55,471 nucleotides of DNA from a virus. Taxonomy: Duplodnaviria > Caudoviricetes. Both the position numbers and the translations under genes were made by a program. A model generated the notes under the pieces. It did not search any database. It was not told the DNA's origin and worked only from the letters and a program-made list of their open reading frames with translations. Positions 13,669-44,195 of this stretch are shown piece after piece. How positions within the stretch are numbered: the stretch's first letter is position 1; every line of letters starts with the position of its first letter. The DNA is taken from positions 1 to 55,471 of the IMG/VR virus record IMGVR_UViG_3300044614_001468; one strand, 5' to 3'.

Positions 13669-13671
13669 TTT

Positions 13672-15021: not shown

Positions 15022-15022
15022 T

Positions 15023-18000: not shown

Positions 18001-20119
18001 TTATGATCAACTCCGTAATGAGTATCTTCCGGCAATCGTAAACGACTATAACGCACAAGGCTTTACTGTGCGCGATACCGCCGGTCAACGAGCGCGTGGC
18101 TCTAATCCGACATATTTTCCGCTGCATTCCGTAGCGGATGATGTTGAGCGGATCTTAACTACGATGCAGGGATCGCCTGAATGGGATAAGCTCAAGGCTG
18201 ATTTCATTAACTGGAACACTCAGCTGCGGCAGGCCGACGGGGCTTCTCTACAAGAGGCGCAAAGATATGCAGATGAGAAGTTCCAAGAGCGCGTTGGGAT
18301 TACTTCGAAGCCGCCGGGCATCGAGAGCGGCATTCCGTTCTCCGGTGCGCGTAAGCCTGAAGGTTATCCGCTGCCGCCTAGCTGGCGCAGTAATGATATC
18401 ATCGACATTCTGAATAACTATACGCGGCGTTCGGCCACGGACTTTGCGTATCAGCAGCATGTTGAGAGTTCGCCTGTAGCGATGGCTGCTTTGGGTGCAA
18501 AGACGATGTTGAACAATCAGCCTATTCCTGCAAATGTTCTTCAAAGCACGCCGCTGATTATCAACGAGCCGAGCGTGCAGTCTGTTCTGCGCGAGTATCG
18601 TGGAACACCGGCACAGCGCACAGACGGCGCATTGCAGAGCTTCGGGCGTTTTGTTAGTGCGTCTACGATTGGACCTGTCTCGAAGGTCGGCGACATCGGC
18701 ACGTCGATGTTTAAGGGTTTGGCTTATCTGCAAGGCAGTGAATACGCGAGCGGACTTGCTGATTTTACTAAGCGCATTGGAGATTGGGCCGCGTTGAAAG
18801 AGCGTTCTTATGCGTCGGGCTTGAATAAGCGTGATGCTGCCGAGAACATGCGTCAGGTGTTGGGCATCGCTGAAGACTCTACGGCTTTCATGGATAAAGC
18901 TGCAAGAGTGTTATCAAAAGCAACATTCGTCAACGATCTTGAATCTGCTGCGCGTGTGATTGCGCAGGGCTGGGGCGAGACTATCGTTGGGATTAATAAA
19001 AAGCTTGCGCTGAGTGGCGATAAGAATGCCACGCAGATGTTGGATACGCTTACGAAAGACTGGCGCACGCGGTCGGATGCTGATCTCGCGGCGCAGGTTG
19101 GACGTTTGCTGCAGGGTTCTTATGACATGCGACAACTTCCTGCCTCTGTGCTCGAAGGGGCCGCTGCGCCTTATCTGACGTGGAGCAAGTGGAGCATTGG
19201 ACAGTATGATTCGTTCGTTAAGTATGCTCTACAGCCTGCGATGCAAGGTAACATGAAGCCTCTGATCGGACAGATGTTGATTGGTGTGCTGGGCGGTGGT
19301 TCTATTGCAGCCGTGCAGGAATGGTTGAATAACCGCGAGGGCAAAGACATATCATGGAAAGAACTCGAAAGCTGGATGCAGCAGAATCAAGGTGAGCTTG
19401 GCGCTGATGGCGGACAGCTTCTTGGGCAGAAACTTCTGTCGATGGCTCAGAAGATGGGCACGTTTGGATTCGCTGGAGATTTGGTTAAGATGACTCTTGA
19501 TGCGTATGCTGGTGGCGCATCACAAGGCATTGCGACCATGCCTGCGATTGATGCGATCTATGATGTGAGTAAGCGTGCTGCGGCTGCGGGCAAAGCGCTT
19601 GATGATGGCGAAGACTTCGGCTTGGTGCTGAAGGCTTTGCTACAGGATTCACTGACAGGTCATGTGCAGGCTTTGCGCGTGGCAAGGAATTGGTTGGATG
19701 AGGATGAGAACCTGCGATATGATGATCGGCGTAAGCGTCGGTTGTTTGATGAGTTGTCGGGCTTGCCTAATAAGGGCGGCACGTTTGCTGTGAATTATAG
19801 CAATCTAAGTGAGAGGGAATTCGAGCGGGGCGAGATTACCCCACAGACCGGCGAAGAGGCATTCTCTTTGGTGTCGAGGGCGCGCGAAGAAGCAACGACG
19901 CCAGAAGATTATGCGAGCCGGATTAGGAAGTATAAGACAAGTCAGAATCAAATCATGCCTTCGTTGGAAAGGCAGCCGATGAAAGCGGCGAGATATCTAA
20001 GCTTTGTCGAAGGCGCAGAGGAAGGCGCTGGGGCTGAGACACTGAAGCGATATCTAACGAGAGAACAAGAGAACAAATATCGGAAGAGTTTGATAGAAGG
20101 AATGAGTGGTCTGAGATAA
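15023..20119 (+). CDS. Large ejection / polyvalent protein (1698 aa) with zincin HExxH motif
   Basis: Glycine-zipper N-terminus, internal SGRPPS repeats, TAIHEIGH...EE motif; last gene of the structural arm. Confidence 0.7.
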   Translation: MTQAQYQWLQDNGYDPTVYDVDPRGRVVKSPVAPEPVQQKMSPLRAAGTSFLGNLLPSAAGLGGAKLGMMAGAPFGPIGVGIGAIGGGLGAGYLAGRGQEAALEQIAPSALEEMRRAEQDQPIYSYLGGFAPNALAFRPSVQGMKGLLRPTVRGTETLTEALAKPEFIAPAANIAANVAGSTAGQLVNMSQGGEFSGPRFAADVTLGTLFNRPTALGRRMGFQDIPEPRREAPGDLAAAREQAAFMEYPPQDFITPREERGAQDIKTPGVNITPEGPEQFFTAEGKRMTEKAMAKDYTNWWKSETEPTTDLIKGAAEEIKMKVPKERLAELAQDPEVGAALRDPSRMPAFIAKQAEQSLEDVYQMMARREVEQRFASPEEAANQRALQELRAERGLPSETALSDVEEAYAARQRTPTKQAQELYGTELAGGSGRPPSLSQVAGADKSAYEAYSGGAPKQRVSTGARFLTAADAENQRALQKLRAERGLPNESPLSDINAAYEAAARSKAASQRTADVRARELYSPELTGISGRPPSVSKASEGYQLIPPTESPRSAIEAGREVYSQELEGPSGRPPSVGQVAKADKTAYEAYSGVRPAPEVKNATEAAREIYTRLQRPAEEYTGKITQEDINLATEIANRRGLKIELDRAYAGDQQVRGLYMVDADGNRIIRVNPLMATADTAIHEIGHDIFKGVTNKGMRRSLMDTAMDSPAYKAELAARAEEVKQGKITQEQANDIALEEGLIQAFGEQMPQVKRGELRAWYQAFKASMKQLVTGKMSPEDALAWMHYATTEAVPWKGVAVAKVDVGGERMQRGSELFSLTNEDFAPSSDPKFLHATHLEQNNPTGLRVAAREPSGKVTIGKLGDLHMDLPAVAENSEFGFVDKTGNFLTREQASAQRANPDIRYQRSILSEAKTPAELDYLASKGGPFADVATNVKAAYNTRDFKQGQWSSKFSLTSALPEEARVRLFNHLAGEFDSGVRSTPASDIRAAYDQLRNEYLPAIVNDYNAQGFTVRDTAGQRARGSNPTYFPLHSVADDVERILTTMQGSPEWDKLKADFINWNTQLRQADGASLQEAQRYADEKFQERVGITSKPPGIESGIPFSGARKPEGYPLPPSWRSNDIIDILNNYTRRSATDFAYQQHVESSPVAMAALGAKTMLNNQPIPANVLQSTPLIINEPSVQSVLREYRGTPAQRTDGALQSFGRFVSASTIGPVSKVGDIGTSMFKGLAYLQGSEYASGLADFTKRIGDWAALKERSYASGLNKRDAAENMRQVLGIAEDSTAFMDKAARVLSKATFVNDLESAARVIAQGWGETIVGINKKLALSGDKNATQMLDTLTKDWRTRSDADLAAQVGRLLQGSYDMRQLPASVLEGAAAPYLTWSKWSIGQYDSFVKYALQPAMQGNMKPLIGQMLIGVLGGGSIAAVQEWLNNREGKDISWKELESWMQQNQGELGADGGQLLGQKLLSMAQKMGTFGFAGDLVKMTLDAYAGGASQGIATMPAIDAIYDVSKRAAAAGKALDDGEDFGLVLKALLQDSLTGHVQALRVARNWLDEDENLRYDDRRKRRLFDELSGLPNKGGTFAVNYSNLSEREFERGEITPQTGEEAFSLVSRAREEATTPEDYASRIRKYKTSQNQIMPSLERQPMKAARYLSFVEGAEEGAGAETLKRYLTREQENKYRKSLIEGMSGLR

Positions 20120-21974: not shown

Positions 21975-22967
21975 TTAGGCTAAGTCTCTCATGCCGTTAG
22001 GATTATCTTTTGAATACTTGCCCCAGTTCTTTCCGACTTGGGCCTCCGATTTCATCGTGAAGTTTATTCCGTCTCGGCCTGTGAGAGAAATGGCGAGGCA
22101 TTCTTGCATGAGCTTCGCCGTGTCAGTGACAATCCCATCTGGAACCAGCGCCAGAAAAGAGTCATGTTTATTGTTAATAGCTGGGAGTGTATTCTTAGGC
22201 CGCTCAGTGTTATAGCGGTTGACCGCGATATGTGTGATGCATCCCACGGTGGACTGAGGAACCCATGAGATGCCTTCCCTGATATAAGAGTCAGTAATAG
22301 TTCTCTCGAACCTGCGTGGATATCCAAACAGATTCCGGAGCTGACGGTTAGTTCTAATTTGAAATTCAATTTCATCTTGCCATTCTATGATTTCGGGGAA
22401 TAGGGACGCGAAGAAGCCGAGGAATGTTTTACATTCTTGAAGAGATAAAGTCAAAGTACCGTGACTTTGCTTGAGAGTCTGAAGCTGGAAGGTCCGCTCA
22501 CGCATTCTATAGGAGGAAGCGTGGCAGACCATCTTGCCGATCTTGTATTCTTTATCTGAGGATTTGATTGCTTTGTCGAGAGGTTTCCAATCTTTGTCTT
22601 GCTTGAGTTCTGTTGGGCTGAGAGATTTCCAATAGCTTGGACTTTTACCGGCGAGAGGCCATTCGTTCTGCATCTGCTCGCAGAAGATGTGAAGCGCGAT
22701 GAAGGTATGAGGTTTGATGCCGACGTTGAAGAGTTCTCTATAACGGCCCGGTCGTGTAAGGTTGGCGACGATAAGAGCTTCGGCGCCGCTTTGGTCGCAT
22801 TGGACGAATGTGTGGTTTGGAGGAGCTATGTAAATATCGAGAGCTTCCTTGTCGGGATTCTGGAGATTCGCTCCGTAGTCGCCTAGGAATTGACCGCTTG
22901 CTAGGCGAAAGCTTCCTGTGCCAGCGACCTTAAGTGAGGTCAGGCAATGGATGTGTGGAGTGGGCAT
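21975..22967 (-). CDS. polA: DNA polymerase family A, C-terminal (palm/fingers) subunit
   Basis: AGTGSFRLAS, NLQNP, motif A DQSGAE, motif B KMVCHASSY, PQST, motif C KHDS. Confidence 0.9.
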   Translation of the reverse strand: MPTPHIHCLTSLKVAGTGSFRLASGQFLGDYGANLQNPDKEALDIYIAPPNHTFVQCDQSGAEALIVANLTRPGRYRELFNVGIKPHTFIALHIFCEQMQNEWPLAGKSPSYWKSLSPTELKQDKDWKPLDKAIKSSDKEYKIGKMVCHASSYRMRERTFQLQTLKQSHGTLTLSLQECKTFLGFFASLFPEIIEWQDEIEFQIRTNRQLRNLFGYPRRFERTITDSYIREGISWVPQSTVGCITHIAVNRYNTERPKNTLPAINNKHDSFLALVPDGIVTDTAKLMQECLAISLTGRDGINFTMKSEAQVGKNWGKYSKDNPNGMRDLA

Positions 22968-22969
22968 AG

Positions 22970-23512
22970 TTATTCGCAGGAATAAATCTCTTTAGATACT
23001 TTCAAACCCGTCGGCCAGTCAGTATTCTTATGAAAGCTATCGTCGAGGATCATGACTTTGTTCGTGGGCTGGGCCGTGATGCGACCGTTGTCGAGCTTGA
23101 TAAAGAGGAACTCTTTGTTCTGCTCGGGATCGTTGCTGAAGCCATCGTCAAAGGGCGCGGCTGTGAAGAGATAGTCGCCGTAGTGTATAAAGCCGTCGCA
23201 ATCTGCCATACAACGCTGACCTCGCAGATAAGTGTACTGGATGGTTTCGAAATTCCAACCGTAGCAATCCCAGCGTTGAGATTGTTCAAGAGGCCATTCG
23301 CTGGGGAGTATATCAGAGCCGAAGTATAGCGCATGAAGCGGAAGATTACGATAGATCGCTCCGTTCTCCAGCAAGACATGACAGCCCCATGCGCGGCCGG
23401 GCGTTGACGTTATGGCGAACCATATCGCGGGCATGTAGCCTTGCGGATGTTTGTGCGTGAAAGCTGTGTCTACGTTTGTGTAGAGATGCTTGGGTAGGTT
23501 TTTTGTGAACAT
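22970..23512 (-). CDS. Hypothetical phage protein
   Basis: Tightly packed ORF; GAIYRNLPLHAL, WDC and YLFT motifs; function unknown. Confidence 0.7.
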   Translation of the reverse strand: MFTKNLPKHLYTNVDTAFTHKHPQGYMPAIWFAITSTPGRAWGCHVLLENGAIYRNLPLHALYFGSDILPSEWPLEQSQRWDCYGWNFETIQYTYLRGQRCMADCDGFIHYGDYLFTAAPFDDGFSNDPEQNKEFLFIKLDNGRITAQPTNKVMILDDSFHKNTDWPTGLKVSKEIYSCE

Positions 23513-23523
23513 ATTTTTAAAGA

Positions 23524-24372
23524 TTAAACGTCATCCCTCCACCCAACAAACGACGCATTGAACGGGCGACCGTCGTCGGTGAGGTTGAGATACTTGATCG
23601 TTGCTTTCTTTTGGAAGTGATAATTTGGGGTAATGAATTCCTCACGCTCTTCGTCGGTGAAGCCTGTGCCGACCTCAAAGCTTACGCCTCTGTTGGTGAT
23701 GAACTTAAGCGCACCTAGTTTGCCTTTGCATTTGCCTTCATCAGAGACGACGCGCCCAATGCACTGGAACTCGTCGTCGAGAAATGCTTTGCGCTTTTGG
23801 AGATTCATCGTCGAGCGTTCCTTTGTGCCCTGTGGCATATACGATCCGAAGACGCTCTTGATCATTTGGCCTTCGAATTGTTGCTTGAGATATTCTTCGT
23901 AACAAGCGTCAAGTTCAATACGAGTCTTGCAAATAGACCACGGGATCATTTCTACGCCAACGCCAGTAGATTCCTTAATGATCTTTTCAAGCAAGAGCAT
24001 CCGAGTGAGTGCGTTGTATTTAGGTTCTACAAGATCGAACGCATAGAAACTGATATGCTTGGCGTCTTCACCGGGCAGAATGCGATTCACGCCCACGGCG
24101 GCGTTGATCTTCTGGAGACTCATGCCGTGGCAGTATAGCTCGCCGTCGATAATGTAATCGTTAAGCGGCGGCGGAAATATACTTTGCAAAACGGCATCAT
24201 TCCACCGCTTGCCATCTCGCGAGAAGAAACCCCGACCGGGAATGTACATGCACCTTAGCCCATTCAGCTTGGGCATCGAGACGACGTGACCGAATTTTGA
24301 GGGGTCATAAATCCCAGCGCGCATAAAGGATGCGGCGATTTGTGGGTCTTTTTCTTTTGTATCTTTTTTCAT
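23524..24372 (-). CDS. lig: ATP-dependent DNA ligase
   Basis: KLNGLR (KxDGxR variant), DGELY, FDL, EGQMIK, C-terminal OB domain with VGTGFTD. Confidence 0.9.
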   Translation of the reverse strand: MKKDTKEKDPQIAASFMRAGIYDPSKFGHVVSMPKLNGLRCMYIPGRGFFSRDGKRWNDAVLQSIFPPPLNDYIIDGELYCHGMSLQKINAAVGVNRILPGEDAKHISFYAFDLVEPKYNALTRMLLLEKIIKESTGVGVEMIPWSICKTRIELDACYEEYLKQQFEGQMIKSVFGSYMPQGTKERSTMNLQKRKAFLDDEFQCIGRVVSDEGKCKGKLGALKFITNRGVSFEVGTGFTDEEREEFITPNYHFQKKATIKYLNLTDDGRPFNASFVGWRDDV

Positions 24373-24374
24373 AT

Positions 24375-25805
24375 TTAATATTCCCAAATCCATTGTTGAA
24401 ATCCTAGCATACCTTTCAGCTTAACCATACGACGCATCTCGAAGATCACATCAATAGCGACGTTCTTAGGATGCTTGAGTTTGATCTTATAGAGAGCATC
24501 CCCAGCGACACTCGGAGCGCCTTTGTCTGTTGTCTTTTCTGGTTTGTATTTTAGTTGTTCGTGTAGATAACGAACGACTTGATCCGGGCTGCCGGGATTA
24601 AGGTCGAAGCCGACGAGGATTTTTAGGATTCTATTTAACTGCTTATATCTTTCTTCACAGCGTCGGACGATGTATTGCCGCTTGACGGGATCAAAGTGCA
24701 TTCCGTGCAGTGACATGAAGGCGTAGTCTGCGAGAGATCGGCTGGCTTGATCGACAGAGTCTTGAAGTCCAGCGTCGTTTCGGCAGACTTCAATCTGACC
24801 ATAGTAAATTTCTCTGAGGACAATAACGTCTTTAACATTGTAAGCGCGGAGCTGCTCAAATTGTGCTCGATTGCGAGGATCAAAGTTCCCTGCTTCATCT
24901 TTATGGAAGGGTCTGTTGCTGTAAAGAGTGGCTTGATGTGCCAGAGATTTCTCGGCCTCAGGGAATATGCGATGCCCAGCGACCATGGTGTCATAGATGT
25001 CATGGCCGAATGGGATCTTATAGAAGGCGGCGAGGAAGCATAGGTCAAAGAGGGCGTTATGTATGACGACTCTTCTTTTCTTTAGCTCTCTTATGAAGCG
25101 CGCAAAGAAAACCACACCCACATTAAGATTGCCGCCCCAATCGTACACAGGGATAGAGTAAACAGGACTCTCTCCACAGGCGATGGCGAGACACGTAAGG
25201 GTGTTCGTCTTGGGGTGAGTCTCAATGTCGAAGAATATAGGACCGTCGTAGTCGAAGACACTTGTGCATTCGGCTGCTCTTTGACAGATGACGGTTTGTG
25301 GTTCAGGTTGAACTTTTTGGGGGTCATATGTTAGGAGTTTCTTGATGTCTTGTGCGAACCAAAAGCTGTAGTTACTGCGCTTCGTTGGGGATGTACTCTT
25401 GCCGTCGTCTTTATCTAGAATGTCTTCGCCGTCATTGTCTCCCTCCAAAGCGTCTTCCATGCCCCATGCGTCGACACAATCTTGAGGCCAGTAAGTAACG
25501 ATGTATTGGGTTTTATTTGGCGAGAGATAGACGACGCCGCGAAAGGCGTCTAGGGTTTTTCCTTTAGCTGCTGGTAGATAATCTAGGGCTTTGGCTCCGG
25601 CAAAGATGATCTTTGTGATGCCGCTTGGTTTGTTTGCGCCTTTGAAGAAGTCGTCGGCGAAAGTAATGAAAACGTTAGATGCGTCATCAAGATCAATACC
25701 ATGACGTACCAAAGTATCACGCACGAAGTCACCAGCGGGTCCGAGTAAGATCCCATTATTTTCTTTATCAAAGCGCGAAGGTCCATGGAGAACGAGGGCT
25801 ATCAT
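24375..25805 (-). CDS. polA: DNA polymerase family A, N-terminal subunit: degenerate UDG-like + 3'-5' exonuclease + thumb
   Basis: GILLGPAG and TYWP UDG-family-4-like remnants; Exo I DIET, Exo II HNALFD, Exo III YNVKD; thumb GMHFD, NPGSPDQV, R..KL. Confidence 0.85.
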   Translation of the reverse strand: MIALVLHGPSRFDKENNGILLGPAGDFVRDTLVRHGIDLDDASNVFITFADDFFKGANKPSGITKIIFAGAKALDYLPAAKGKTLDAFRGVVYLSPNKTQYIVTYWPQDCVDAWGMEDALEGDNDGEDILDKDDGKSTSPTKRSNYSFWFAQDIKKLLTYDPQKVQPEPQTVICQRAAECTSVFDYDGPIFFDIETHPKTNTLTCLAIACGESPVYSIPVYDWGGNLNVGVVFFARFIRELKKRRVVIHNALFDLCFLAAFYKIPFGHDIYDTMVAGHRIFPEAEKSLAHQATLYSNRPFHKDEAGNFDPRNRAQFEQLRAYNVKDVIVLREIYYGQIEVCRNDAGLQDSVDQASRSLADYAFMSLHGMHFDPVKRQYIVRRCEERYKQLNRILKILVGFDLNPGSPDQVVRYLHEQLKYKPEKTTDKGAPSVAGDALYKIKLKHPKNVAIDVIFEMRRMVKLKGMLGFQQWIWEY

Positions 25806-31093: not shown

Positions 31094-31933
31094 TTATTCT
31101 CCTTTATCATACTCCGGCAATTCAATCTCTCCAAGTTCTCTCTTAAGTAATAGATTACGCAACGCACGGACATTCCCAAAGGAGAATGTCTCGTCGCCGA
31201 AGTGTTCGCGCTCGCCAATAGGTGTCCAGTTTTCTTCTTCGATTATCGCCGAGGCCACACATCGGATTTCCTGCACGCCTCGTTGTTGTAATGAGAGAGT
31301 CTTCAGACCGAGTTCGTTAATGCGGAAGTATAGATCCTCACGGAAGCTTCCCTCTTTAACCATCTTGAGGAGATCTCTATTTGTAGCGAACACAAACCTA
31401 CATTGAATTGGCACAGGATCAACAGCTCCGACGGGCAAGACTGTCTTATCCTGCAAGACTCTCAATAACTTAGCTTGATGCGACAGGGGCAATTCGCCTA
31501 TCTCATCGAGGAAAGCAGTACCCTTGCCGACTGCTCTTAGGAAACCAACGTCGCCTCTTGATTTAGCACCAGTAAAAGCGCCGGGCATGTAGCCAAATAG
31601 TTCTGATTGGAATAGTGTGTCTGTCAAACCAGCCATGTTCATAGCCTTGAGAGGCTTTCGTTTGTGGGCAAGGATCCTTGCGATCAACTCCTTGCCTGTG
31701 CCCGATGGGCCTTCGATCAGGACGTTGTATCTCTGCAAGCTTTCTTCCGCATATGTCATCGCGGAGTTGAGCATCTTCTTCGTGGCAGGATCTTGCGTGG
31801 CATAGGACGAAGCGACATTGTGGATACTGTTCTCCTTCAATGCGTCGCCTGTGATCTTGAGGACATCCTTGCGGATGTTATCAAGGAAGCTGTCGGCGGC
31901 TGTGGTATTGAGGACGTTTGCGTGGATGTTCAT
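31094..31933 (-). CDS. Sigma-54-dependent transcriptional activator (bEBP AAA+ domain only)
   Basis: GPSGTGKE, SELFG, GAFTGA, FLDEIGEL, QAKLLRVLQ, ATNRDL, FREDLYFRI, GNVRAL; no receiver domain and no C-terminal HTH. Confidence 0.95.
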   Translation of the reverse strand: MNIHANVLNTTAADSFLDNIRKDVLKITGDALKENSIHNVASSYATQDPATKKMLNSAMTYAEESLQRYNVLIEGPSGTGKELIARILAHKRKPLKAMNMAGLTDTLFQSELFGYMPGAFTGAKSRGDVGFLRAVGKGTAFLDEIGELPLSHQAKLLRVLQDKTVLPVGAVDPVPIQCRFVFATNRDLLKMVKEGSFREDLYFRINELGLKTLSLQQRGVQEIRCVASAIIEEENWTPIGEREHFGDETFSFGNVRALRNLLLKRELGEIELPEYDKGE

Positions 31934-34914: not shown

Positions 34915-35485
34915 AGTTTAGGATGTTTCTTGTGTCTACGATTTTTAGTACTTCTTCGAGAGGGAAATAGCAGTTGATGTTGTTGAATGCGCCTTTGAGG
35001 GCGTCGTTGAGCTGTCGAGATTTGTTAAGATAGATCTCTTCGCCTTGTGAAGTGATCGCGATGGCGACCTCTGTTGCCTTCTGTCTGTTGAAGAGCTTAG
35101 CTTTAGCGAGTGCATCACTGATCATCTCTACACGGAGATCTTCTGCTTTCTTCCGGATGTAGGATATGTCAGAGGCAAGGTGGTTTGCACGAAGGATTCT
35201 TCTGCGCTCGTCGCTGAGGTTCCAATCGGTGGCATCCCAGATGACAGAGTAAGAGAATCCGTCTTCGTTGATTCTCTGAATATGGAGATGCTCACTTGCG
35301 CAGTGAGCCTTAACCCAGTCGGCTGTTTCATTTGTAGCAACAATCGCATGGGCAAGATTATTCCCGCCAGTTCGGCGGATGAAATGCCCTCGCTCTGCAT
35401 CGACATGACAAGAGCACGATGGGAAGAGCAATCCCCAGAGTTCTTGTGGAGTGATTTCTTGGACGTCTTCATTTTGAGGAGGCAT
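34805..35485 (-). CDS. Hypothetical protein
   Basis: Start overlaps the end of rpoN. Confidence 0.6.
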   Translation of the reverse strand: MPPQNEDVQEITPQELWGLLFPSCSCHVDAERGHFIRRTGGNNLAHAIVATNETADWVKAHCASEHLHIQRINEDGFSYSVIWDATDWNLSDERRRILRANHLASDISYIRKKAEDLRVEMISDALAKAKLFNRQKATEVAIAITSQGEEIYLNKSRQLNDALKGAFNNINCYFPLEEVLKIVDTRNILNYEQSPATEDNQRIPAPEESNGQSHQEERLDTPTAGG

Positions 35486-36764
35486 AGACTTTACGGAGAT
35501 GTGATGGTTGAATACCTAGTTCTGCTCTGTATTTAGCGATTGTGCGCCGGGCGATTGTGTTCTTGAGGAGTGTTACAATGTCCTCATCGCTTAGTGGGCG
35601 AGACTTGTCTTCGCATGAGATGATCTCTGCGATTTGATTTTTTATTGAGAGGTTACTTTGCATGGTGTTTTGTTCATGGTTTACGATAGCACTGGTGAAG
35701 AAAAATCTTAGTTCATATGTACCGCGCGGAGTAGAGATGTATTTGTTACACACGGCTCTGCTCACGGTGGTCTCGTGGATCTCACAGACCGTCGCGATCT
35801 GAGCCATCGTGAGCGGCTTGAGATCTTTGATCTGGCCGCTGCGGAAGAAGTCTTGTTGATAGTCTACGATCGCATTAGACACGCGGCCGAGAGTAGACTG
35901 GCGCTGCATGATAGATCGAATGAGAAACTTTCCCATCTTTACTTTCTCACGCACGAACTCCCGCTCGGCGGGCTTGAGCTTGTGGAGATAGCTTAGAACG
36001 TGATCGTTGATCTTGTAGACAGGAAGTTTCTCGTTCGGGATATCTATTGTGCCGTCGTCGCGCAGAAAGATCTCTGCGTCTTTCGGCGTGTGCGTTGAAG
36101 ATGCGAACTCTGAAGCGGGATTATAGTTTAGTTTAGAGAGTTGCTTGTACAATAATTCGATCGTGGTAAAGGTCTCGTTGTATTTCTTCGCGAGAATGGG
36201 GATTTGGCGTCGAGTGAAGAGATCTTCGTCTTGTTGAAGGATTTGATAAGCTAATGAAGAAGAATTTAATTGAAGACATAAGCAATCTGCAAGACTCAAA
36301 GCGCCGAGGCCGCGTGGTTCGAGCGTGCGGATAAATCGCAGAGCTTTTCTCTGTTCTGTCGTGAGAATGTCTGGATCATGTAGGAAATATCCTCGCTCGT
36401 TAAGAAGAGATATGACAGAGAGATCATGACCGGCGAGAGATAATTCTTTCTCTAAGTATTCTTCTAGTGTCTCATCTCGGCCGGGATTATTCTCTAGCGG
36501 ATATTGCTCTTTGTATGATGGAACACTATCCGAGAGAGAAGTCCACTGCATATCCGCCGGGAGTTCAGCTTTGTCGTTCTCGTAGGATATGTCTTCTTCT
36601 GCTTGATTATTGTCAAGCATCTCGACGCATGGATTGTCGTTGATGAACGACTCCATGATAGATCGCAGGTCACAAAGTGGAGCTTGAAGAAGCGCGAGAG
36701 ACTGTTGCAGTTGTGGACTCAGTATCAAAGATTGAGTCTGCTGCGTGGAGATAGAAATTTTCAT
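35469..36764 (-). CDS. rpoN: RNA polymerase sigma-54 factor
   Basis: Region I QQTQSLILSPQLQQSLALLQAP, EPRGLGA.SL..CL.LQL, LKPLTM, HETTVSRA..NKY, ELRFFF, PLSDEDI, RpoN box ARRTIAKYR. Confidence 0.97.
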   Translation of the reverse strand: MKISISTQQTQSLILSPQLQQSLALLQAPLCDLRSIMESFINDNPCVEMLDNNQAEEDISYENDKAELPADMQWTSLSDSVPSYKEQYPLENNPGRDETLEEYLEKELSLAGHDLSVISLLNERGYFLHDPDILTTEQRKALRFIRTLEPRGLGALSLADCLCLQLNSSSLAYQILQQDEDLFTRRQIPILAKKYNETFTTIELLYKQLSKLNYNPASEFASSTHTPKDAEIFLRDDGTIDIPNEKLPVYKINDHVLSYLHKLKPAEREFVREKVKMGKFLIRSIMQRQSTLGRVSNAIVDYQQDFFRSGQIKDLKPLTMAQIATVCEIHETTVSRAVCNKYISTPRGTYELRFFFTSAIVNHEQNTMQSNLSIKNQIAEIISCEDKSRPLSDEDIVTLLKNTIARRTIAKYRAELGIQPSHLRKVYASSK

Positions 36765-38492: not shown

Positions 38493-38623
38493 AAGCTTTC
38501 ATCTCGTCCAATATCCCATCCCGGACCATCATCAAGAGGCTCATCGTCATAGATGCTCAATTCGCGACGCAAGTCTTCGAGTGTGGGATTTTCTTCTATT
38601 TCTTCAACTGGTTCTTTCATAGA

Positions 38624-38938
38624 TTAAAAAGTTTTGTGACTCTCAATAAAGTTCTTAGCATTTAGAAGATTGCAAGGATAACCTGTTAGCTTGAGATGCA
38701 AGCCCATAAAGAATTTCATCATGCGAATCTTAACGGGTCCGAGTCTTTCATCTTTGTCAGATGGTTGCATAAGGTCAGACCATAGCTCTTGCACCATAAG
38801 GCTCGTGTAGGTCACGGCGTGAACCTCACGAATAGGCTCCATGTCGGAGATTGCAACTTCGACATCTTCATCAAGCCTTTGATAAAAGTAATGAGCTAAT
38901 AGTCTTTCGGCCTCTTGTTTGTTTACTGTTATTTTCAT
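38624..38938 (-). CDS. Early hypothetical protein
   Basis: ORF with A-rich leader. Confidence 0.6.
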   Translation of the reverse strand: MKITVNKQEAERLLAHYFYQRLDEDVEVAISDMEPIREVHAVTYTSLMVQELWSDLMQPSDKDERLGPVKIRMMKFFMGLHLKLTGYPCNLLNAKNFIESHKTF

Positions 38939-39051
38939 TTTATTTAGTTAGTACATTATTCCTTTGACAAAGTAATACAAAGTGACCAGTAAGATCACAG
39001 AACCTACAATCAAAACAATGAGTTCGTCTTTCTTGTGTTGTTTCATAAATA

Positions 39052-39276
39052 TCAAATCCAATCAATTTTACTTTTCTCAGTCGCTCTCACAATACGAGAG
39101 ACACTTGGTTTATGACAGAGCCAAGCCTTTGCCTTATGGACAGATTGCTTGTCTTTCTTAGCATTGCGCTTTGAAAGAGGCACAAGTTGCTTGTGCATTT
39201 TGGATTGCTTCGAGGCAAAGTATTTGCCTAGATTGACAGAGTTAAATCTGTCAAATTGTTTTTGCTTTCTGGTCAT
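39052..39276 (-). CDS. Early basic hypothetical protein
   Basis: Lys-rich 74-aa ORF. Confidence 0.5.
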   Translation of the reverse strand: MTRKQKQFDRFNSVNLGKYFASKQSKMHKQLVPLSKRNAKKDKQSVHKAKAWLCHKPSVSRIVRATEKSKIDWI

Positions 39277-39342
39277 AAAAAAGAGCTTTTAGTTATTCAC
39301 TAAAAGCTCGATCAAGGCACAACGCTTCGCGTTGTGTGTTGT

Positions 39343-39432
39343 TTATTCCTGCTCTGCTTCGAGTTCGAAGCGGCAGTCGATGCACAAGCAATCATTGGCT
39401 TGTGCTTTCTGGTCACAATATTTGCATTCCAT
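39343..39432 (-). CDS. 29-aa Cys-rich peptide MECKYCDQKAQANDCLCIDCRFELEAEQE
   Basis: Translated by eye; CxxC...CxxC. Confidence 0.55.
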   Translation of the reverse strand: MECKYCDQKAQANDCLCIDCRFELEAEQE

Positions 39433-40335
39433 AATAACCTAGACTTTGCATCTAGTCTTTACCTTGTAGTGTGTGGATAGTTTGAAGAAAGAGAAGGTTT
39501 GAATAAAACCATTTAGTGCGTGGATATTGCGTTGTGGATAATGCGCAACACTACAAAGCAAAGACTAAATGCAAAAGCCTTGCGAGTCACCTATTGTTTC
39601 CCTTGCAAAAGGCAAGGCAATAGCGCAAGGCTTTTGATTTAGTTTTTGAGGTTATTTAATTGGGCAAGCTACCAAAGATAACCTACAAAGAGTCTTTTGT
39701 TTAAGTGTTTCTGTCTTCTGACATCCGATGGACAGTTTCTTAAGCAATCGGAAAGCTAACACTTAGGGCCGTCGTTAGGCGTTGCACCTAACACGTTTTT
39801 CTTTTGGTTCCGGTCAAAGCCTAGCCAACCAAAAGAGTCCCAAAGACTTTGGGCTTTTGTTTTCGTTTCTTTGTCTACTTGTCCCGCATTTAATCGGTTC
39901 ACTCTTTCGAAGAGTCTAGACAAGCTTTCAAAGTCTACTAGCAAGAGCCTTTCCCATTCATCGCAGGGAACACACAAGGGTAAATCCCCTATGTTGTACG
40001 TTTCACGTCTCACGTTTCTTTGTTAAATGCGTTTGAGTTTTAAATCTTAACATTAAACAAAGAAAACCGGTTTTTTATTCCTACTTTAACAAAAGGGGAT
40101 TTAATGTCTGCATAGCTACTTTGTCCGATTCTTTAGTGTTTCTCTTAACACTTTAGCTTTTCCCGCTACTAGGTTAAATGCGTTTCTTCCGATTTACCTA
40201 GACTCTTAAGGCAATTTACACTTTGCCTTAATAGCTTCACGCTACTTCTAAAGAATTATTTCCGCTCCTTTTGATAGTATCAAAAAGGCACGCTATGCGT
40301 TTATTAAATCCGGTTTTTTGTATTATTCAAACCGG
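39433..40335 (-). ncRNA. Candidate large structured non-coding RNA
   Basis: Many nested complementary segments; mismatches in the longest helices resolve as G.U on the minus strand. Confidence 0.55.
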
Positions 40336-40337
40336 GC

Positions 40338-40856
40338 TTTGTGTGTGCTAGGTTCACTCTCCCGCTTTAACACGGGAGAGTGTGAAGTGTTACCGTCAAT
40401 TAGGCTTTTGTTGGCGTCTGGGAAGCTCCCTGAGAGGCTTTGAGAGCCGGGAGGGTGCTATCCCCGGTCTCAACTTCACAAGCTCTCAGGAGAGCATTTA
40501 AACGCATTCCAAGAGCATTGGAGATCCCGCTCAAGGCTTCCCATCGAGCAGTCTCGTTTTCAAGAATGCTCTTGTGCGTTCCCTTGGCAAAAGAACCTTT
40601 GACGATAGGACCGATTGCAGAGCCTTTGCTCATACCAACAGCCTTGGCGGTATCTTTGAGGCTCTCAGCCTTTCCGATCTCTCTAACGAAATCGGCGGGA
40701 TGGATTGCACACAAAGAAACGAGATCCTTGACAAAAGGAATGACAGTTTGATTGACGGTATTGTTGTTTTTGTTTTGCATTTTAGTATTAGGTTTTAGTT
40801 TTAGTTTTTAACTTCACACTTTGTTTTATTCAAAGAGTGAACCTAACACACACAAA
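40338..40856. repeat. Long-range inverted repeats flanking the 126-aa ORF
   Basis: 40338-40360 vs 40834-40856 (22/23) and 40379-40388 vs 40811-40820 (10/10). Confidence 0.9.
40400..40780 (-). CDS. First early protein (126 aa), unknown function
   Basis: ATG with A-rich leader; only sizeable plausible ORF in the region. Confidence 0.7.
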   Translation of the reverse strand: MQNKNNNTVNQTVIPFVKDLVSLCAIHPADFVREIGKAESLKDTAKAVGMSKGSAIGPIVKGSFAKGTHKSILENETARWEALSGISNALGMRLNALLRACEVETGDSTLPALKASQGASQTPTKA

Positions 40857-41236
40857 TAAATATGTTTTGTCCCTTTGGCTCAAAGGAGAGCCAACAAAAG
40901 GGATTCTATAAAACCGCCACAAAGCAAAGCCTTGCGCGAGAAAACCCACGCAAAGCCTTTAATGCGATTCCGGAAAAGAACAAAAACTGACAATCTGCAA
41001 AGTCTTCTATACGCCAAAAACCGTCAAGCCTTTTCAAAAAACGTAACGCAAACGTAACTTAACAGTAGCCTAACCTTAACTTGACAAGCTATTTTAGGTA
41101 ACAAAAAACGCTATTTTAAGTAAAAAACGGGTATTCTAGGGAAAACCACAAAAGACGCAACAAAAAACGAAAACTATTAGAAAAACTAATCTAACCTCAA
41201 AAACACTAAAGGCTTTCTAATGCCCTACAAGCCAAC

Positions 41237-41277
41237 AAAACACTTGTAAATCTCAAAAAACACTTGTAAATCTCAAA
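41237..41277. repeat. 20-bp tandem duplication (aaaacacttgtaaatctcaa)
   Basis: Two exact adjacent copies. Confidence 0.9.
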
Positions 41278-41332
41278 TAAAACAAGCTTTTTCTTTAGGT
41301 AATTGGATTAGTTAAAAGTTAGGAAAGGTAGG

Positions 41333-41559
41333 AAATACGCTTATTGGGGTCTGGTCAATTTGGGCTTATAGTTAAATTAGGTCTAATACAATATTATGTT
41401 TTATTATAATACTTTAATATGCTATTTATAATATTTTATTACCTTAGTTCTAATTTATTATTATAAATACAATATTAGACTCTTAAGACTCCCATTTATA
41501 CGATATTCAAGTTAAAACAAACACAAGCGCAATTTCGGTATTTATCAATAAGCGTATTT
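41333..41559. repeat. 14-bp perfect inverted repeat enclosing an extremely AT-rich core
   Basis: aaatacgcttattg (41333-41346) / caataagcgtattt (41546-41559); inner gtctaata/tattagac. Confidence 0.8.
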
Positions 41560-41622
41560 TCTTGTTTATAAATAGCCTTTAACACTCTCAAAACACAACA
41601 AAACGCTATTTACAAAGAGCTT

Positions 41623-41757
41623 CAATGCATAGAACTGCTATGCATCACAGCGCAATCCCTTGCACTTCTATCCCTAAGACTTCTATCCCTAAGACTCCAA
41701 TGCATCACTCTACTATGCATCTCTCTGCTATGCATCACAGTCCAATGCATCCCCGAC
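41623..41757 (+). repeat. Array of nine 15-bp imperfect repeats (C[AT]ATGCATC.. / C[AT]ATCCCT..)
   Basis: Exact 15-nt period, units aligned by eye. Confidence 0.9.
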
Positions 41758-41856
41758 AAGCCGGTGTACGGAAAGACCCGAAAAATTGTGCCTTTGTTCG
41801 AACACGTCTCCTCACAGATTTTATAGATTTTTTAGCCCTTTTTTGCATATTCTTTT

Positions 41857-41874
41857 ATGGCATTCTAAAAGCTT
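41857..41874 (+). promoter_or_regulatory. Putative sigma-54 late promoter of the terminase operon
   Basis: aTGGCAttctaaaaGCtt; the -12 C lies 15 nt before the terS ATG. Confidence 0.65.
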
Positions 41875-41886
41875 TGATCGTTTTAT

Positions 41887-42429
41887 ATGAGTGACTTAAT
41901 GATGAGAAATCAGATATTAGGACTAAGGCGCGCAGGGATGAGTTGTGAAGAGATATCTGCCGCGCTTGAGGTTGACCCTGTAGTGGTAAAGTTGGCCTTA
42001 GAAGCGACAGGTGGGTCTGTAGCCTTAAGAAAAGAAGCCCTCAAAGAGGAAGACATAACCGACGATGTCTCTGAACAAGAGGCCAAAGAGATGATGGGCA
42101 TCATCAAGAACATAGCCCGTGACGAAGACTCTGGCGTCTATGCCCGACTAAACGCGGCTAAGTATGCCCATGGCGCCAAGCGCGGTTATCACAAACGCCA
42201 TCTCGATCTTAACGTGGGCTCGGGCGAATTGCTTCTCAAGATCAACGAAGCCTACGCCTCAGCATCTATGCGCGCCCGCGCGGCTCTTAGCGGCCAATCT
42301 CTCACCGCTAAAGAAATCACCATCGAGGCCCCAATAACCGTAGAGGCGCCCTTAGCCGCAGAACTCCCTTCTGATCACACTACTCAATCAGAGCCTGCGG
42401 CGCCGAAACCCCGGCCCTTTAAGATATGA
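41887..42429 (+). CDS. terS: Putative terminase small subunit
   Basis: N-terminal HTH (GMSCEEISAAL), RLNAAKY; overlaps the terL start. Confidence 0.6.
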   Translation: MSDLMMRNQILGLRRAGMSCEEISAALEVDPVVVKLALEATGGSVALRKEALKEEDITDDVSEQEAKEMMGIIKNIARDEDSGVYARLNAAKYAHGAKRGYHKRHLDLNVGSGELLLKINEAYASASMRARAALSGQSLTAKEITIEAPITVEAPLAAELPSDHTTQSEPAAPKPRPFKI

Positions 42430-44195
42430 CAAAGACTCCAATCTCCGCTGATACACTCAAACTTGTTCAAGCCCGTCGCGCACTTGAGGCAGAGAAAGCT
42501 GCAGAAAAAGAACGTGCAAAAGCAGCCAAAAAGAAAGCTGTAGAAGTTCCGCCTAAAGCGCCTGACGCTGTCGTAGTAGAGCCGCCTGCAAAAAACAAAC
42601 GCTACATTGCGCATCAGATCGACACCCCGGCGGATTTACTCCTCGCCCATCGACCTGATCTGAAGCTCTATAAATGGCAAGCAGAAACTCTATTTCAACT
42701 TGCAGGATATACCGACATCAATGATCTCGATCTGCCTAAAACTCGACCAACCGACAAGACGCCGTTATACTACAATCTTGTCGCGGCCAACGGAAGCGGA
42801 AAAGATCAGGTCGTTATTAGCTCCTTCGCTGTCTGGTTTTGCCTTTCCAAAGTCCGTTCTCGATGCGTCATTACGTCATCTTCGTACGAGCAGCTTAAGG
42901 ATCAGACGTATAAGTACATAAAGAACATCTGTGAAGAGATCAATGTCTCGTATGGCCGTAAGGTATTTGAGATCGTTGAGTTCTTGATTACCTGTAATGA
43001 CACCGGCAGCGAGATCAAATGCTTCGTGACAGATGACCCCGGCAAAGCCGAAGGGCGTCACCCGTTCGACGAACCCGGCGCCGAGATGGCCGTGATCATT
43101 AATGAAGCTAAATCTATCACCGATGAAATGTTCCAAGCCTTCTCACGCTTTACAGGTTATAACTACTGGCTTGAAATCTCTTCGCCCGGCAAGAATAGCG
43201 GCCATTTTTTCAAGCGTTGTACGCGTGCAAAGCGCACATTCCCAGATCCTCTCGAAATAGGCGAATTCTACTGGCGTCGTGTCACGGCATTCGACTGCCC
43301 TCATCTTCTTGGCAAACACATCGAGCATCTTAAGGACGAACACGGTGAACAATCCCTCATCTATCGAAGTCAAGTATTGGCTGAGTTTACCTCACTCGAC
43401 GAAGCCGCATTTATACCTTCAACACTATTCGAAAACTACCCAGCAAATCCACCGCGTACATTTGGATTGCCCAATCGAGCGGGCATCGACTTATCACTCG
43501 GCGGCGATGAAACTGTGGCGTACTTCTTTATCCATGGAAAACTCCACCTACGAACAACAAAGATTCGTAACGAGGCAATTCTCCACAATCAGATCATCAG
43601 TTGGATTAAAGAATTTAACGTCACGCCCTCTGAGGTACGCATTGACGATGGCGGTCTGGGACGACCTATCGTGCAGCGAGTGCAAAATGCAGGTTATGAC
43701 GTCGTGCCGATACGAAACGAAGCCCGATCAACCAACCCAAATTTCTACAAAAACAGAGGCGTTGAAAACTGGAATCGTATTAAGCGTGCTCTTGAAGACC
43801 GTGCGTTTCCTGCACTTAATGACGACCTTACTCGCCAACAGTTATGTACGCGTGGCTTCTCTGTTAAAGGGATCGTCACGCTCTTAGAGCCTAAAGCAGA
43901 AATGCGCTCGCGTGGTTTGTCGTCGCCTGATCGCGCAGACGCTCTTGCGCTTTGTTTTGACAGTGTTCCTCTTGGAGCTTTCAAAGAAGAAACATTACAC
44001 ACAACTGAACCAGAAAGTCGTTTCTTAGAACTCATAGATCTTAACAAAAAAGGCCTCTTAACGCAGAACGAAGCTCAAGAACTCACACTTCTTTGGGGTC
44101 AGATGACACACAGACCGGCACAGGAAACGCTAAATTCGCCTGAGCCGCGTGAAGAATTACGTGGTCAATATCATCAATTCGTAACCGCTAAATAA
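42426..44195 (+). CDS. terL: Terminase large subunit
   Basis: AANGSGKD Walker A, IINEAK Walker B, ISSP, GIDLSLGGD, IDDGGLG, SPDRADAL. Confidence 0.9.
   Translation: MTKTPISADTLKLVQARRALEAEKAAEKERAKAAKKKAVEVPPKAPDAVVVEPPAKNKRYIAHQIDTPADLLLAHRPDLKLYKWQAETLFQLAGYTDINDLDLPKTRPTDKTPLYYNLVAANGSGKDQVVISSFAVWFCLSKVRSRCVITSSSYEQLKDQTYKYIKNICEEINVSYGRKVFEIVEFLITCNDTGSEIKCFVTDDPGKAEGRHPFDEPGAEMAVIINEAKSITDEMFQAFSRFTGYNYWLEISSPGKNSGHFFKRCTRAKRTFPDPLEIGEFYWRRVTAFDCPHLLGKHIEHLKDEHGEQSLIYRSQVLAEFTSLDEAAFIPSTLFENYPANPPRTFGLPNRAGIDLSLGGDETVAYFFIHGKLHLRTTKIRNEAILHNQIISWIKEFNVTPSEVRIDDGGLGRPIVQRVQNAGYDVVPIRNEARSTNPNFYKNRGVENWNRIKRALEDRAFPALNDDLTRQQLCTRGFSVKGIVTLLEPKAEMRSRGLSSPDRADALALCFDSVPLGAFKEETLHTTEPESRFLELIDLNKKGLLTQNEAQELTLLWGQMTHRPAQETLNSPEPREELRGQYHQFVTAK

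What the first reader, a model, noticed from the sequence alone, without database searches (positions are those of the whole stretch)
39660..40335. Candidate large multi-domain structured ncRNA in the earliest-transcribed region
Seen in sequence: properly nested helices 40097-40105/40303-40311, 40110-40116/40292-40298 and 40128-40136/40248-40256, enclosing hairpins at 40169-40201, 40206-40231 and 40232-40244, plus 40267-40288. Also 40015-40029/40051-40065 (14/15) and further stems in 39760-39990 (minus strand agactttg/caaagtct enclosing gcttgtct/ggacaagt and actct/agagt; cttttggtt/aaccaaaag; gttaggtg/cgcctaac). Unpaired linkers are A/purine-rich on the minus strand. No convincing protein gene is present. 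Inference: a several-hundred-nt structured RNA in the size class of phage-associated GOLLD/ROOL RNAs, but I cannot match it to a known family.
Basis: partly seen in the sequence, partly recalled or inferred. Interest (0 to 1): 0.8.

Follow-up and report, generated by a model that had tools for sequence, protein, structure and literature searches.

The report
Conserved folded non-coding leader in lake phage
A lake-water phage carries about a kilobase of non-coding DNA, just after its first leftward gene, whose single-stranded fold is kept by evolution and matches no known RNA family, so it is probably a new structured RNA of unknown job.

Summary
The 269-nt Domain I (40067-40335, minus strand) folds far better than shuffles (z -5.69, 0 of 200). 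Neighbouring controls do not (z +0.74 and -1.49). In four other distinct copies from related phage contigs, 0.64-0.65 of changed stem cells stay paired. The figures are 0.26 in flanking non-coding DNA and 0.34 in coding DNA. The 85-aa ORF is lost in 4 of 4 homologues. Rfam gives nothing.

The folded stretch is larger than reported, about 40860 to 39445. It includes a 23-bp stem bracketing the upstream 126-aa gene, a terminator-like hairpin, and a long stem whose loop carries three TATCCAC repeats. The minus strand is favoured. Related phages carry two other, non-homologous modules with the same layout: a small gene followed by a folded non-coding stretch.

No expression data exist. My best guess (0.4) is a cis-acting early-operon leader RNA that controls read-through or processing. 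A stand-alone ncRNA (0.3) and a DNA-level origin signal (0.12) remain open.

The parts
40834..40856 (-). 5' arm of a 23-bp long-range stem, in the 5' leader of the 126-aa gene
   Evidence: Inverted repeat I5, 96% complementary. Across 5 sequences, 99.1% of cells are paired. Six pairs changed on both sides, all in L014, against 1.2 in shuffles and 0-1 with slid partners.
40400..40780 (-). 126-aa ORF, the first gene of the leftward arm and part of the same cassette; function unknown
   Evidence: ORF list. 129 relatives with E<=0.001 among 139 candidates, all unnamed or 'hypothetical' (one 'AcuC-like' label aside). No hit below E 0.1 in Pfam, PHROGs or NCBIfam.
40338..40360 (-). 3' arm of the 23-bp long-range stem; overlaps the 3' half of hairpin H0
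40355..40382 (-). Hairpin H0 (10 bp), directly after the ORF stop; an alternative partner for part of the long-range stem
   Evidence: Helix 2. It is rebuilt with a different stem sequence in L014 (alignment).
40067..40335 (-). Domain I: a rod of four helices (P1-P4), a side hairpin P5, and helix P6 closing a junction of five hairpins (P7-P11)
   Evidence: MFE of the single sequence gives z -5.69. Helices 5-15 are 90-100% paired, with changes on both sides in P2, P3, P4, P5, P8 and P11. Window-only MFE test: 30 of 47 changed cells stay paired. CM R1 finds it once per genome.
40120..40261 (-). Core of Domain I (the P6-closed junction), nearly invariant in sequence
   Evidence: 96.5-97.2% identical in L007, L014 and L022 and 83% in L008, where two stems are swapped. 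The adjacent ORF DNA is 69-75% identical.
40015..40065 (-). Domain II: a 15-pair bipartite hairpin carrying the second copy of a 13-base word also found in hairpin P9
   Evidence: Helix 17: 97.3% paired, 3 pairs changed on both sides. The word occurs twice in the window, which is not above chance on its own.
39951..40008 (-). Three short hairpins
   Evidence: Helices 19-21: 98-100% paired, with 1, 4 and 1 pairs changed on both sides.
39852..39949 (-).
   Evidence: Helices 22-27. The inner helices are 51-54% identical in L008 and L022 yet largely refold, with 10 pairs changed on both sides.
39800..39836 (-).
   Evidence: Helix 30: 15 pairs, 100% paired, 4 changed on both sides.
39770..39795 (-).
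   Evidence: Helix 31. It is replaced by a different, fully paired stem in L014 (alignment).
39702..39765 (-). Domain V: a closing helix with two inner hairpins
   Evidence: Helices 32-34: 90-100% paired, 8 pairs changed on both sides.
39665..39685 (-). Hairpin
   Evidence: Helix 35: 90.9% paired, one-sided changes only.
39573..39635 (-). Three-segment hairpin with a G+C-rich base, an A run before it and a U run after it: terminator-like in both directions (t1)
   Evidence: Helices 1-3: 100% paired, 2 pairs changed on both sides. Sequence read. The consensus scanner did not call it, perhaps because of the internal loops; its rules name only stem and loop sizes.
39448..39572 (-). Long stem (25 pairs) with a 75-nt pyrimidine-rich loop that holds three TATCCAC repeats and a small covarying hairpin
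   Evidence: Inverted repeat I3. Helices 4 and 6: 99-100% paired, with 3 and 3 pairs changed on both sides. TATCCAC is kept three times in 5 of 5 sequences.

Best explanation
The interval is the middle of a stretch of about 1.4 kb (roughly 40860 to 39445) that includes the 126-aa gene; its roughly 1 kb of non-coding sequence is heavily base-paired. The stretch brackets and follows the first small gene of the leftward arm of a 55-kb lake-water phage.

Shown:
- It is non-coding.
- Its single-stranded fold is conserved through compensatory substitutions.
- The minus strand, which is the sense strand of the flanking genes, fits better than the plus strand.
- It matches no Rfam family.
- Related phages carry two other, non-homologous cassettes with the same layout: a small gene, 500-600 nt of folded non-coding sequence, and a long stem whose loop holds three direct repeats.

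Inferred:
- It is transcribed with the first gene as a long untranslated leader or 3' UTR.
- It acts in cis on the early transcription unit.
- The nearly invariant Domain I junction and the repeat-bearing loop bind RNA polymerase, a host factor or the cassette's own small protein.
- This binding decides whether transcription and translation pass the terminator-like hairpin at 39573-39635 into the downstream replication and sigma-54 genes, by processive antitermination or by controlled processing and stabilisation.
- The 23-bp stem around the first gene is a likely double-strand RNase site. Cleavage there would separate the gene's mRNA from the downstream folded RNA.
For: Fold and conservation:
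- z -5.69 for Domain I, against +0.74 and -1.49 for controls.
- With a structure taken from the window sequence alone, changed stem cells in the four other sequences stay paired in 30 of 47 (Domain I), 97 of 150 (downstream half) and 28 of 48 (t1 plus long stem). The controls give 59 of 231 (upstream non-coding) and 66 of 193 (coding).

Non-coding.

Strand:
- The same test on the plus strand gives 21 of 51 and 70 of 167.
- With helices defined without G-U, 28 pairs show G-U only and 13 show A-C only (p 0.028).
- Unpaired positions are 52% A.

Sequence constraint: the Domain I core is 96.5-97% identical where the neighbouring ORF DNA is 69-75% identical.

Layout:
- The element starts right after the first ORF of a 20-kb same-strand arm.
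- A terminator-like hairpin closes it.
- Further terminator-like sites lie on the same strand at 39309-39283, 36895-36860, 25925-25892 and 20168-20132.

Interchangeable modules with the same layout.

Precedent: the conAn system is a small protein gene followed by a 260-600-bp antiterminating RNA region at the head of a long operon (PMC8191782, abstract and passages read).
Against: - There is no evidence of transcription, of RNA ends or of any activity.
- No promoter could be placed. The sigma-70 scan is not above chance, and a Bacteroidota-type pattern found none in the region.
- The small protein has no recognisable RNA-binding or antiterminator domain.
- Known RNA antiterminators are much shorter, or poorly conserved in sequence. 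A nearly invariant 142-nt junction is more typical of RNAs with tertiary structure and a trans function.
- The downstream genes may have promoters of their own.
- Only five distinct sequences from one phage clade were available, and much of the covariation comes from one or two of them.
Confidence: 0.4

Rival explanations
1. It is a stand-alone, trans-acting large non-coding RNA: a new family of the kind that GOLLD and ROOL represent. It would be cut out of the early transcript, with its 5' end near 40337 (cleavage in the 23-bp stem) and its 3' end at the U run near 39573, giving about 770 nt. It would act on host machinery, or assemble into a higher-order particle, during infection.
For: - It has many helices and a six-way junction whose loops and joints are nearly invariant while the stems covary.
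- Unpaired positions are A-rich.
- The size is in the GOLLD/ROOL range: 659 nt and above 800 nt (PMC12286853, passages).
- It is encoded by a phage from lake water.
- The long-range stem ends 2 nt before Domain I begins.
Against: - No Rfam match, even at E<=10.
- No tRNA genes nearby: 0 in the window. GOLLD and ROOL often lie near tRNA islands.
- Apart from Domain I, the RNA is a chain of simple local hairpins.
- No promoter of its own was seen between the ORF stop and Domain I (sequence read).
- Non-homologous substitutes at the same locus in relatives point to a locus-bound role.
Confidence: 0.3
2. It is a DNA-level element: a replication origin or single-strand priming signal. The hairpins would form in single-stranded DNA, and the TATCCAC repeats would bind DnaA or the cassette's small protein as initiator.
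For: - The only perfect match in the window to the 9-base DnaA-box consensus (recalled) lies at 39533-39541, with two near matches within 70 nt.
- Three direct repeats sit inside an inverted repeat, next to a module-specific small gene.
- Folding z-scores are equally good on both strands.
- t1 and the long stem score the same on both strands.
- Cumulative GC skew peaks near 37-39 kb.
Against: - 700 nt of covarying hairpins with strand-specific G-U tolerance and A-rich loops is not what duplex-DNA protein sites need.
- The repeat word differs between modules (TATCCAC, TATCCTC, GTCTTCTC) and its spacing is irregular. Box counts over the window are not above chance: 14 found against 9.3 expected.
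- The AT-rich, repeat-bearing DNA that looks most like an origin lies elsewhere, at 41077-41500.
Confidence: 0.12
3. It is a collection of unrelated small elements with no joint function: terminators, RNase sites and mRNA-stabilising hairpins that happen to lie side by side.
For: - Downstream of Domain I the fold is a row of independent local hairpins.
- Terminator-like sites are enriched in the region: 12 found against 2.9 +/- 1.7 expected.
- The downstream half gives only z -2.47.
Against: - Domain I is a 269-nt nested structure whose long-range helices are supported by changes on both sides.
- Its unpaired joints are nearly invariant, which simple hairpin signals do not require.
Confidence: 0.15
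4. It encodes protein: the 85-aa ORF 39756..40013 or a smaller peptide.
For: An 85-aa GTG ORF is open in the window.
Against: - The start codon is changed in 4 of 4 homologues. There are 3 to 5 indel events per homologue, which shift the frame, and stops in all four.
- 0 of 22 ORFs of 12 codons or more is intact in all homologues.
- No PHROG or Pfam hit.
Confidence: 0.01

Closest known systems
GOLLD and ROOL large 'ornate' RNAs of phages and prophages
   Same: Phage-encoded, several hundred nucleotides long, many helices backed by covariation, function unknown, found in lake or other environmental sequence (PMC12286853, abstract and passages).
   Different: - No match to their Rfam models or to any other.
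- No tRNA genes nearby.
- Only one complex junction; the rest is simple hairpins.
- It is tied to a small upstream gene and a fixed place in the early operon.
- Oligomer formation is untested.
conAn bipartite antitermination system of Gram-positive conjugative plasmids (ConAn1 protein plus conAn2 RNA region)
   Same: A small protein gene at the head of a long operon is followed directly by a long non-coding region (260-600 bp) that works as RNA. Terminators lie inside the operon. Sequence is poorly conserved between versions. An inverted repeat sits at the ends of the RNA region (PMC8191782, abstract and passages).
   Different: - The carrier is a phage, not a plasmid.
- The RNA is about twice as long.
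- The long-range stem brackets the protein gene, not the RNA.
- Homology of the 126-aa protein to ConAn1 was not tested, and no family hit was found.
- No activity data exist.
HK022 put RNA and lambda-type nut sites (early-operon antitermination signals)
   Same: Cis-acting RNA signals just downstream of early phage promoters. They differ between otherwise related phages as exchangeable modules (put: PMC9378689, search listing and abstract only. The rest is recalled).
   Different: Those signals are tens of nucleotides long, one or two stem-loops. This element is about a kilobase with a 269-nt junction domain. A CM search found a single copy per genome, whereas put and nut occur in both early operons (recalled).
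Processed leader RNAs that set immunity in P4 (CI RNA) and P1/P7 (c4 RNA)
   Same: Structured RNAs cut from the untranslated leader of an early operon. They are module-specific between relatives (recalled; no paper read).
   Different: Those RNAs are under 100 nt and act by pairing with repeated complementary target sites downstream. I found no such repeated complementary sites here beyond the 23-bp stem.
ColE1-type primer RNA II with a downstream DnaA box (recalled)
   Same: A long, multi-hairpin untranslated transcript that ends next to DnaA-box-like words. The phage encodes a family A DNA polymerase.
   Different: There is no evidence of an RNA-DNA hybrid site or of an antisense RNA. The repeat word varies between modules.

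Membership tests
GOLLD RNA (Rfam) | Match to the family covariance model | tested here: not met
   cmscan of the whole window at gathering scores gave 0 matches. 38900-41900 at E<=10 gave only seven unrelated chance-level rows. That Rfam holds this model is stated in PMC12286853.
ROOL RNA (Rfam) | Match to the family covariance model | tested here: not met
   Same searches.
GOLLD/ROOL | Usual context next to tRNA islands (frequent, not obligatory) | tested here: not met
   ARAGORN found 0 tRNA genes in the 55,471-base window.
GOLLD/ROOL | RNA-only homo-oligomeric cage | not testable with these tools
   Needs native gels or cryo-EM.
conAn-type bipartite antitermination | Small protein gene at the head of a long operon, directly followed by a several-hundred-nt non-coding region | tested here: met
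   ORF 40400..40780, then no conserved ORF down to 39276. Same-strand ORFs continue to 20181.
conAn-type bipartite antitermination | Terminators inside the operon that must be read through | tested here: inconclusive
   The consensus scan finds same-strand hairpin plus T-run sites at 39309-39283, 36895-36860 and 25925-25892, and there is the t1 hairpin. Their function, and whether promoters lie downstream of them, is unknown.
conAn-type bipartite antitermination | Protein homologous to ConAn1 | not tested
   No ConAn1 sequence was fetched. Pfam, PHROGs, NCBIfam and the PDB profile search give nothing for the 126-aa protein.
conAn-type bipartite antitermination | Antitermination activity of the RNA region in cis | not testable with these tools
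   Needs reporter assays.
Intrinsic terminator (element at 39573-39635) | G+C-rich hairpin followed by a U run | tested here: met
   24 pairs, 100% paired in 5 sequences, followed by UUUU. The U run also pairs with an upstream A run, and it is also the start of the next long stem, so termination efficiency is open.
DnaA-box cluster / origin | Several matches to the 9-base DnaA-box consensus (recalled), close together | tested here: inconclusive
   One perfect match and one with a single mismatch, 61 nt apart, plus a third with two mismatches. In L014 and L022 the perfect box is altered by a 3-nt deletion, though TATCCAC is kept. Other modules carry different repeat words.
Protein-coding gene (85-aa ORF) | Open frame and start codon conserved in relatives | tested here: not met
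   0 of 4 homologues keep it.

The most novel reading that the evidence does not exclude
Lake-water phages of this clade start their leftward arm with interchangeable two-part control cassettes, of which at least three unrelated versions exist. Each pairs a small orphan protein with its own 0.5-1 kb elaborately folded RNA. The version here contains a new ornate RNA domain: a six-way junction with a nearly invariant sequence that binds RNA polymerase or another central host machine. This would be a phage counterpart of plasmid conAn systems, or a new class of large functional RNA, in hosts that seem to initiate translation without Shine-Dalgarno sites and in a phage that brings its own sigma-54.
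Probability: 0.25. Interest if true: 0.85.

Novelty: new variant of a known kind. Interest (0 to 1): 0.6.

Why it matters
Large structured non-coding RNAs are rare in bacteria and phages, and the few known classes have repeatedly turned out to be remarkable. This element has a clear fold supported by covariation, and a core more conserved than the gene beside it. It has a defined genomic setting and natural 'swap' partners in related phages, which makes its function experimentally approachable. If it controls read-through of the early operon, it would extend RNA-based processive antitermination to a new phage group and a new, much larger RNA architecture. If it acts in trans, it would be a new family of ornate phage RNA. 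Either way, the protein next to it has at least 129 close relatives in public metagenome protein sets, so the cassette is probably common in public metagenomes, most clearly in lake water (only the lake and freshwater runs were laid), and unstudied.

Tried and rejected
RNA family, gene and database searches:
- Rfam at gathering scores (whole window) and at E<=10 (38900-41900): no meaningful match.
- tRNA/tmRNA scan: none.
- blastn of 38900-41900 against deposited phage genomes: no match.

Expression:
- No RNA holder was listed for 38500-42500.
- Contigs of four DNA runs laid on 39400-40900 showed only strain variants and gave no usable extra rows, because the table was cut.

More homologues:
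- Three exact-word scans of viral contigs and one of metagenome contigs gave five distinct sequences in all.
- Loci L018-L021 matched only the probe word inside unrelated coding DNA and were dropped.
- Protein-profile scans found the same four viral contigs and nothing in prokaryote genomes.
- Covariance model R1 found no diverged copy in relatives that lack the cassette; the best other hit was 11.6 bits, E 0.28.
So the DNA behind the 129 protein relatives could not be fetched.

The 126-aa protein:
- AlphaFold model of low confidence, pLDDT 59.6.
- No Foldseek match at E<=0.001.
- No PDB profile match.
- Atlas leads to HTH regulators score below 0.9 and are leads only.

Promoters and shared words:
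- Sigma-70 consensus scan not above chance.
- Sigma-54 pattern not enriched: 48 found against 56 expected.
- Bacteroidota-type pattern absent from the region.
- A word apparently shared by cassettes A and B did not hold up.
- Stems bracketing the first gene in cassettes B and C: none convincing.

A caution on my own counts: pair counts on structures derived by RNAalifold are inflated. The weakly folding upstream control also beat all shuffles (25 pairs changed on both sides against 11.5). I therefore rest the case on the window-only MFE test with controls.

Literature: four full-text searches found no description of this element or of sigma-54 in such phages. One search failed on a term format. 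Supplementary files were not consulted.

Full report
**Setting.** The window is one complete virus record of 55,471 bases. Long ORFs run on the plus strand from 1885 to 20119, on the minus strand from 40780 down to 20181, and on the plus strand again from 41887.

The minus arm encodes:
- a sigma-54 factor with all three Pfam domains (35469..36764);
- a sigma-54 activator AAA+ domain (31094..31933);
- a split family A DNA polymerase, an ATP-dependent ligase, a helicase and a PD-(D/E)XK nuclease.

The plus arm starts with a terminase-like protein. Its nearest deposited relatives are Akkermansia phage terminases at 27-30% identity. The finding lies just downstream of the first minus-strand ORF (126 aa, 40400..40780), in a low-G+C stretch.

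- The 676-nt interval folds better than shuffles on both strands: z -4.33 and -6.95, 0 of 20 each.
- The 273 nt from 40065 to 40337 give z -5.69 (minus) and -5.73 (plus), 0 of 200 each.
- Equal-length controls do not fold unusually. Upstream non-coding 40960-41232 gives z +0.74. Coding 38640-38912 gives z -1.49.
- The lower half, 39660-39950, is weaker at z -2.47, 4 of 200.

**Homologues.**
- Of eight related contigs with enough upstream flank, fetched through the terminase, three carry this DNA and five do not.
- Exact-word scans added one viral contig and four metagenome contigs. Four further loci matched only the probe and were dropped.
- After removing identical copies, five distinct sequences remain, 74-88% identical pairwise.

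**Coding or not?**
- The 85-aa ORF is open only in the window.
- In all four other sequences the start codon is changed, there are 3 to 5 indel events per homologue that shift the frame, and stops appear.
- None of 22 ORFs of 12 codons or more, on either strand, is intact in all homologues.

**Conserved structure.**
- RNAalifold on the five sequences predicts 215 pairs, 45 of them kept through changes on both sides.
- Counting on an alifold-derived structure gives 95.3% of cells paired and 48 pairs changed on both sides. Shuffles give 21.7 +/- 3.1, and slid partners give 2-9.
- Such counts are inflated by construction. The poorly folding upstream region, treated the same way, also beat all shuffles.

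I therefore used a structure taken from the window sequence alone and asked how often a changed cell in the other four sequences still pairs:

| Region | Changed cells still paired | Fraction |
|---|---|---|
| Domain I | 30 of 47 | 0.64 |
| Downstream half | 97 of 150 | 0.65 |
| Terminator-like hairpin plus long stem | 28 of 48 | 0.58 |
| Control: upstream non-coding DNA | 59 of 231 | 0.26 |
| Control: the 126-aa ORF | 66 of 193 | 0.34 |

The fold is under selection.

**Anatomy, minus strand, 5' to 3'.**
1. A 23-bp stem pairs 40856-40834 in the leader of the 126-aa gene with 40338-40360 behind it. In L014, six pairs changed on both sides and 22 of 23 pairs are kept. Its 3' arm overlaps a local hairpin at 40355-40382, so two folds compete.
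2. Domain I (40335-40067) is a rod of four helices with a side hairpin, ending in a helix that closes a junction of five hairpins. The 142-nt core is 96.5-97% identical in three homologues whose neighbouring ORF DNA is only 69-75% identical. In the fourth homologue two stems are swapped for different, still complementary sequences.
3. A chain of hairpin domains follows, down to 39665.
4. A three-segment hairpin at 39635-39573 has an A run before it and a U run after it, so it is terminator-like. After it comes a 25-pair stem (39572-39548 with 39472-39448). Its 75-nt pyrimidine-rich loop holds three TATCCAC repeats and a small covarying hairpin.

The conserved fold therefore spans about 40860 to 39445, roughly twice the reported interval.

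**Which strand?** Thermodynamic scores do not tell.
- With helices defined without G-U pairs, G-U-only pairs outnumber A-C-only pairs 28 to 13 in minus-strand letters (p 0.028).
- The consensus energy is 30 kcal/mol better on the minus strand.
- Unpaired positions are 52% A and 13% C.
- The window-only test drops from 0.64 and 0.65 on the minus strand to 0.41 and 0.42 on the plus strand. The terminator-like hairpin and long stem score the same on both strands.
- The minus strand is also the sense strand of the genes on both sides.

This fits an RNA made with those genes. Single-stranded DNA of that strand cannot be excluded.

**Context in relatives.**
- The relatives without this DNA carry one of two other first genes at the same place, about 113 aa or about 105-150 aa. 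Neither resembles the 126-aa protein or the other by BLASTP.
- Both are followed by 500-600 nt without credible ORFs that also fold with compensatory changes: 34 of 169 pairs in three sequences, and 16 of 142 in two.
- Both end in a 22-23-bp stem whose loop carries three direct repeats of a different word.
- So this phage group has at least three interchangeable cassettes of one design. The TATCCAC words, which include the window's only perfect DnaA-box match, may be cassette-specific repeats rather than DnaA boxes.

**What is it?**
- It is in no Rfam family and is not next to tRNA genes. I therefore do not file it under GOLLD or ROOL, although it shares their size class and phage origin.
- The nearest functional parallel I could read about is the conAn system. 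There, a small protein gene at the head of a long operon is followed by a 260-600-bp RNA region that makes RNA polymerase read through terminators.
- The layout here is the same, and terminator-like sites lie on the same strand further down the arm.
- I therefore favour a cis-acting early-operon leader RNA that governs read-through or processing (0.4). A processed stand-alone RNA comes second (0.3).
- The 126-aa protein gives no help. It has 129 close relatives, all unnamed or 'hypothetical' apart from one 'AcuC-like' label, no family hit, a low-confidence helical model and no fold or PDB match.

**Limits.**
- No RNA data were available.
- Only five sequences from one clade were available.
- The host is unknown.
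- Promoters could not be placed.
- Four literature searches found no earlier description. Supplements were not seen.

Noticed in passing
35469-36764 (-) and 31094-31933 (-): The phage encodes a full-length sigma-54 factor (activator-interacting, core-binding and DNA-binding domains). It also encodes a 279-aa sigma-54 activator consisting of little more than the AAA+ domain. A canonical -24/-12 pattern is not enriched in the genome. A literature search found no paper on such phages.
   Followed up: partly
L003 5693-6619, L004, L006 (cassette B); L005 5514-6555, L013 (cassette C): Related phages carry two other, unrelated first genes at the same locus. Each is followed by 500-600 nt of folded non-coding sequence with compensatory changes. 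Each ends in a 22-23-bp stem whose loop holds three direct repeats: GTCTTCTC in L003 and TATCCTC in L005.
   Followed up: partly
39472-39541 (-): There are three TATCCAC words in a 75-nt loop. One of them is the window's only perfect match to the DnaA-box consensus. In L008 the 3' arm of the enclosing stem ends 3 nt before the start codon of the next ORF.
   Followed up: partly
40860-41887: A gene-free divergent region between the two arms holds an exact 20-mer tandem duplicate (41237-41276), 22-nt repeats (41077-41120), GTTACG-type repeats near 41040-41075, an AT-rich palindromic stretch (41380-41500) and 15-nt repeats (41620-41751) just upstream of the first rightward gene. It looks like the promoter/operator region, or an origin or packaging region. 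It does not fold unusually (z +0.74).
   Followed up: partly
39278-39438: A 160-nt insertion is present only in the window. It carries two G+C-rich hairpins and a strong terminator-like site (39309-39283) whose T run abuts the start codon of ORF 39276..39052.
   Followed up: no
whole window: Only 3 of 43 long ORFs have a Shine-Dalgarno-like tetramer upstream, and the leaders are A-rich. This hints at a host that initiates translation without Shine-Dalgarno pairing. The host itself was not identified.
   Followed up: partly
21975-25805 (-): The family A DNA polymerase is split into an exonuclease/N-terminal part (24375..25805) and a C-terminal part (21975..22967). A ligase gene and a 180-aa ORF lie between them.
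   Followed up: no
window 38500-42500 in public runs: The stretch or parts of it are held by 24 listed DNA runs from 20 studies. Twelve runs have a share of 0.2 or more, all labelled lake water or freshwater metagenomes. Contigs of four of them laid on 39400-40900 show many strain variants.
   Followed up: partly
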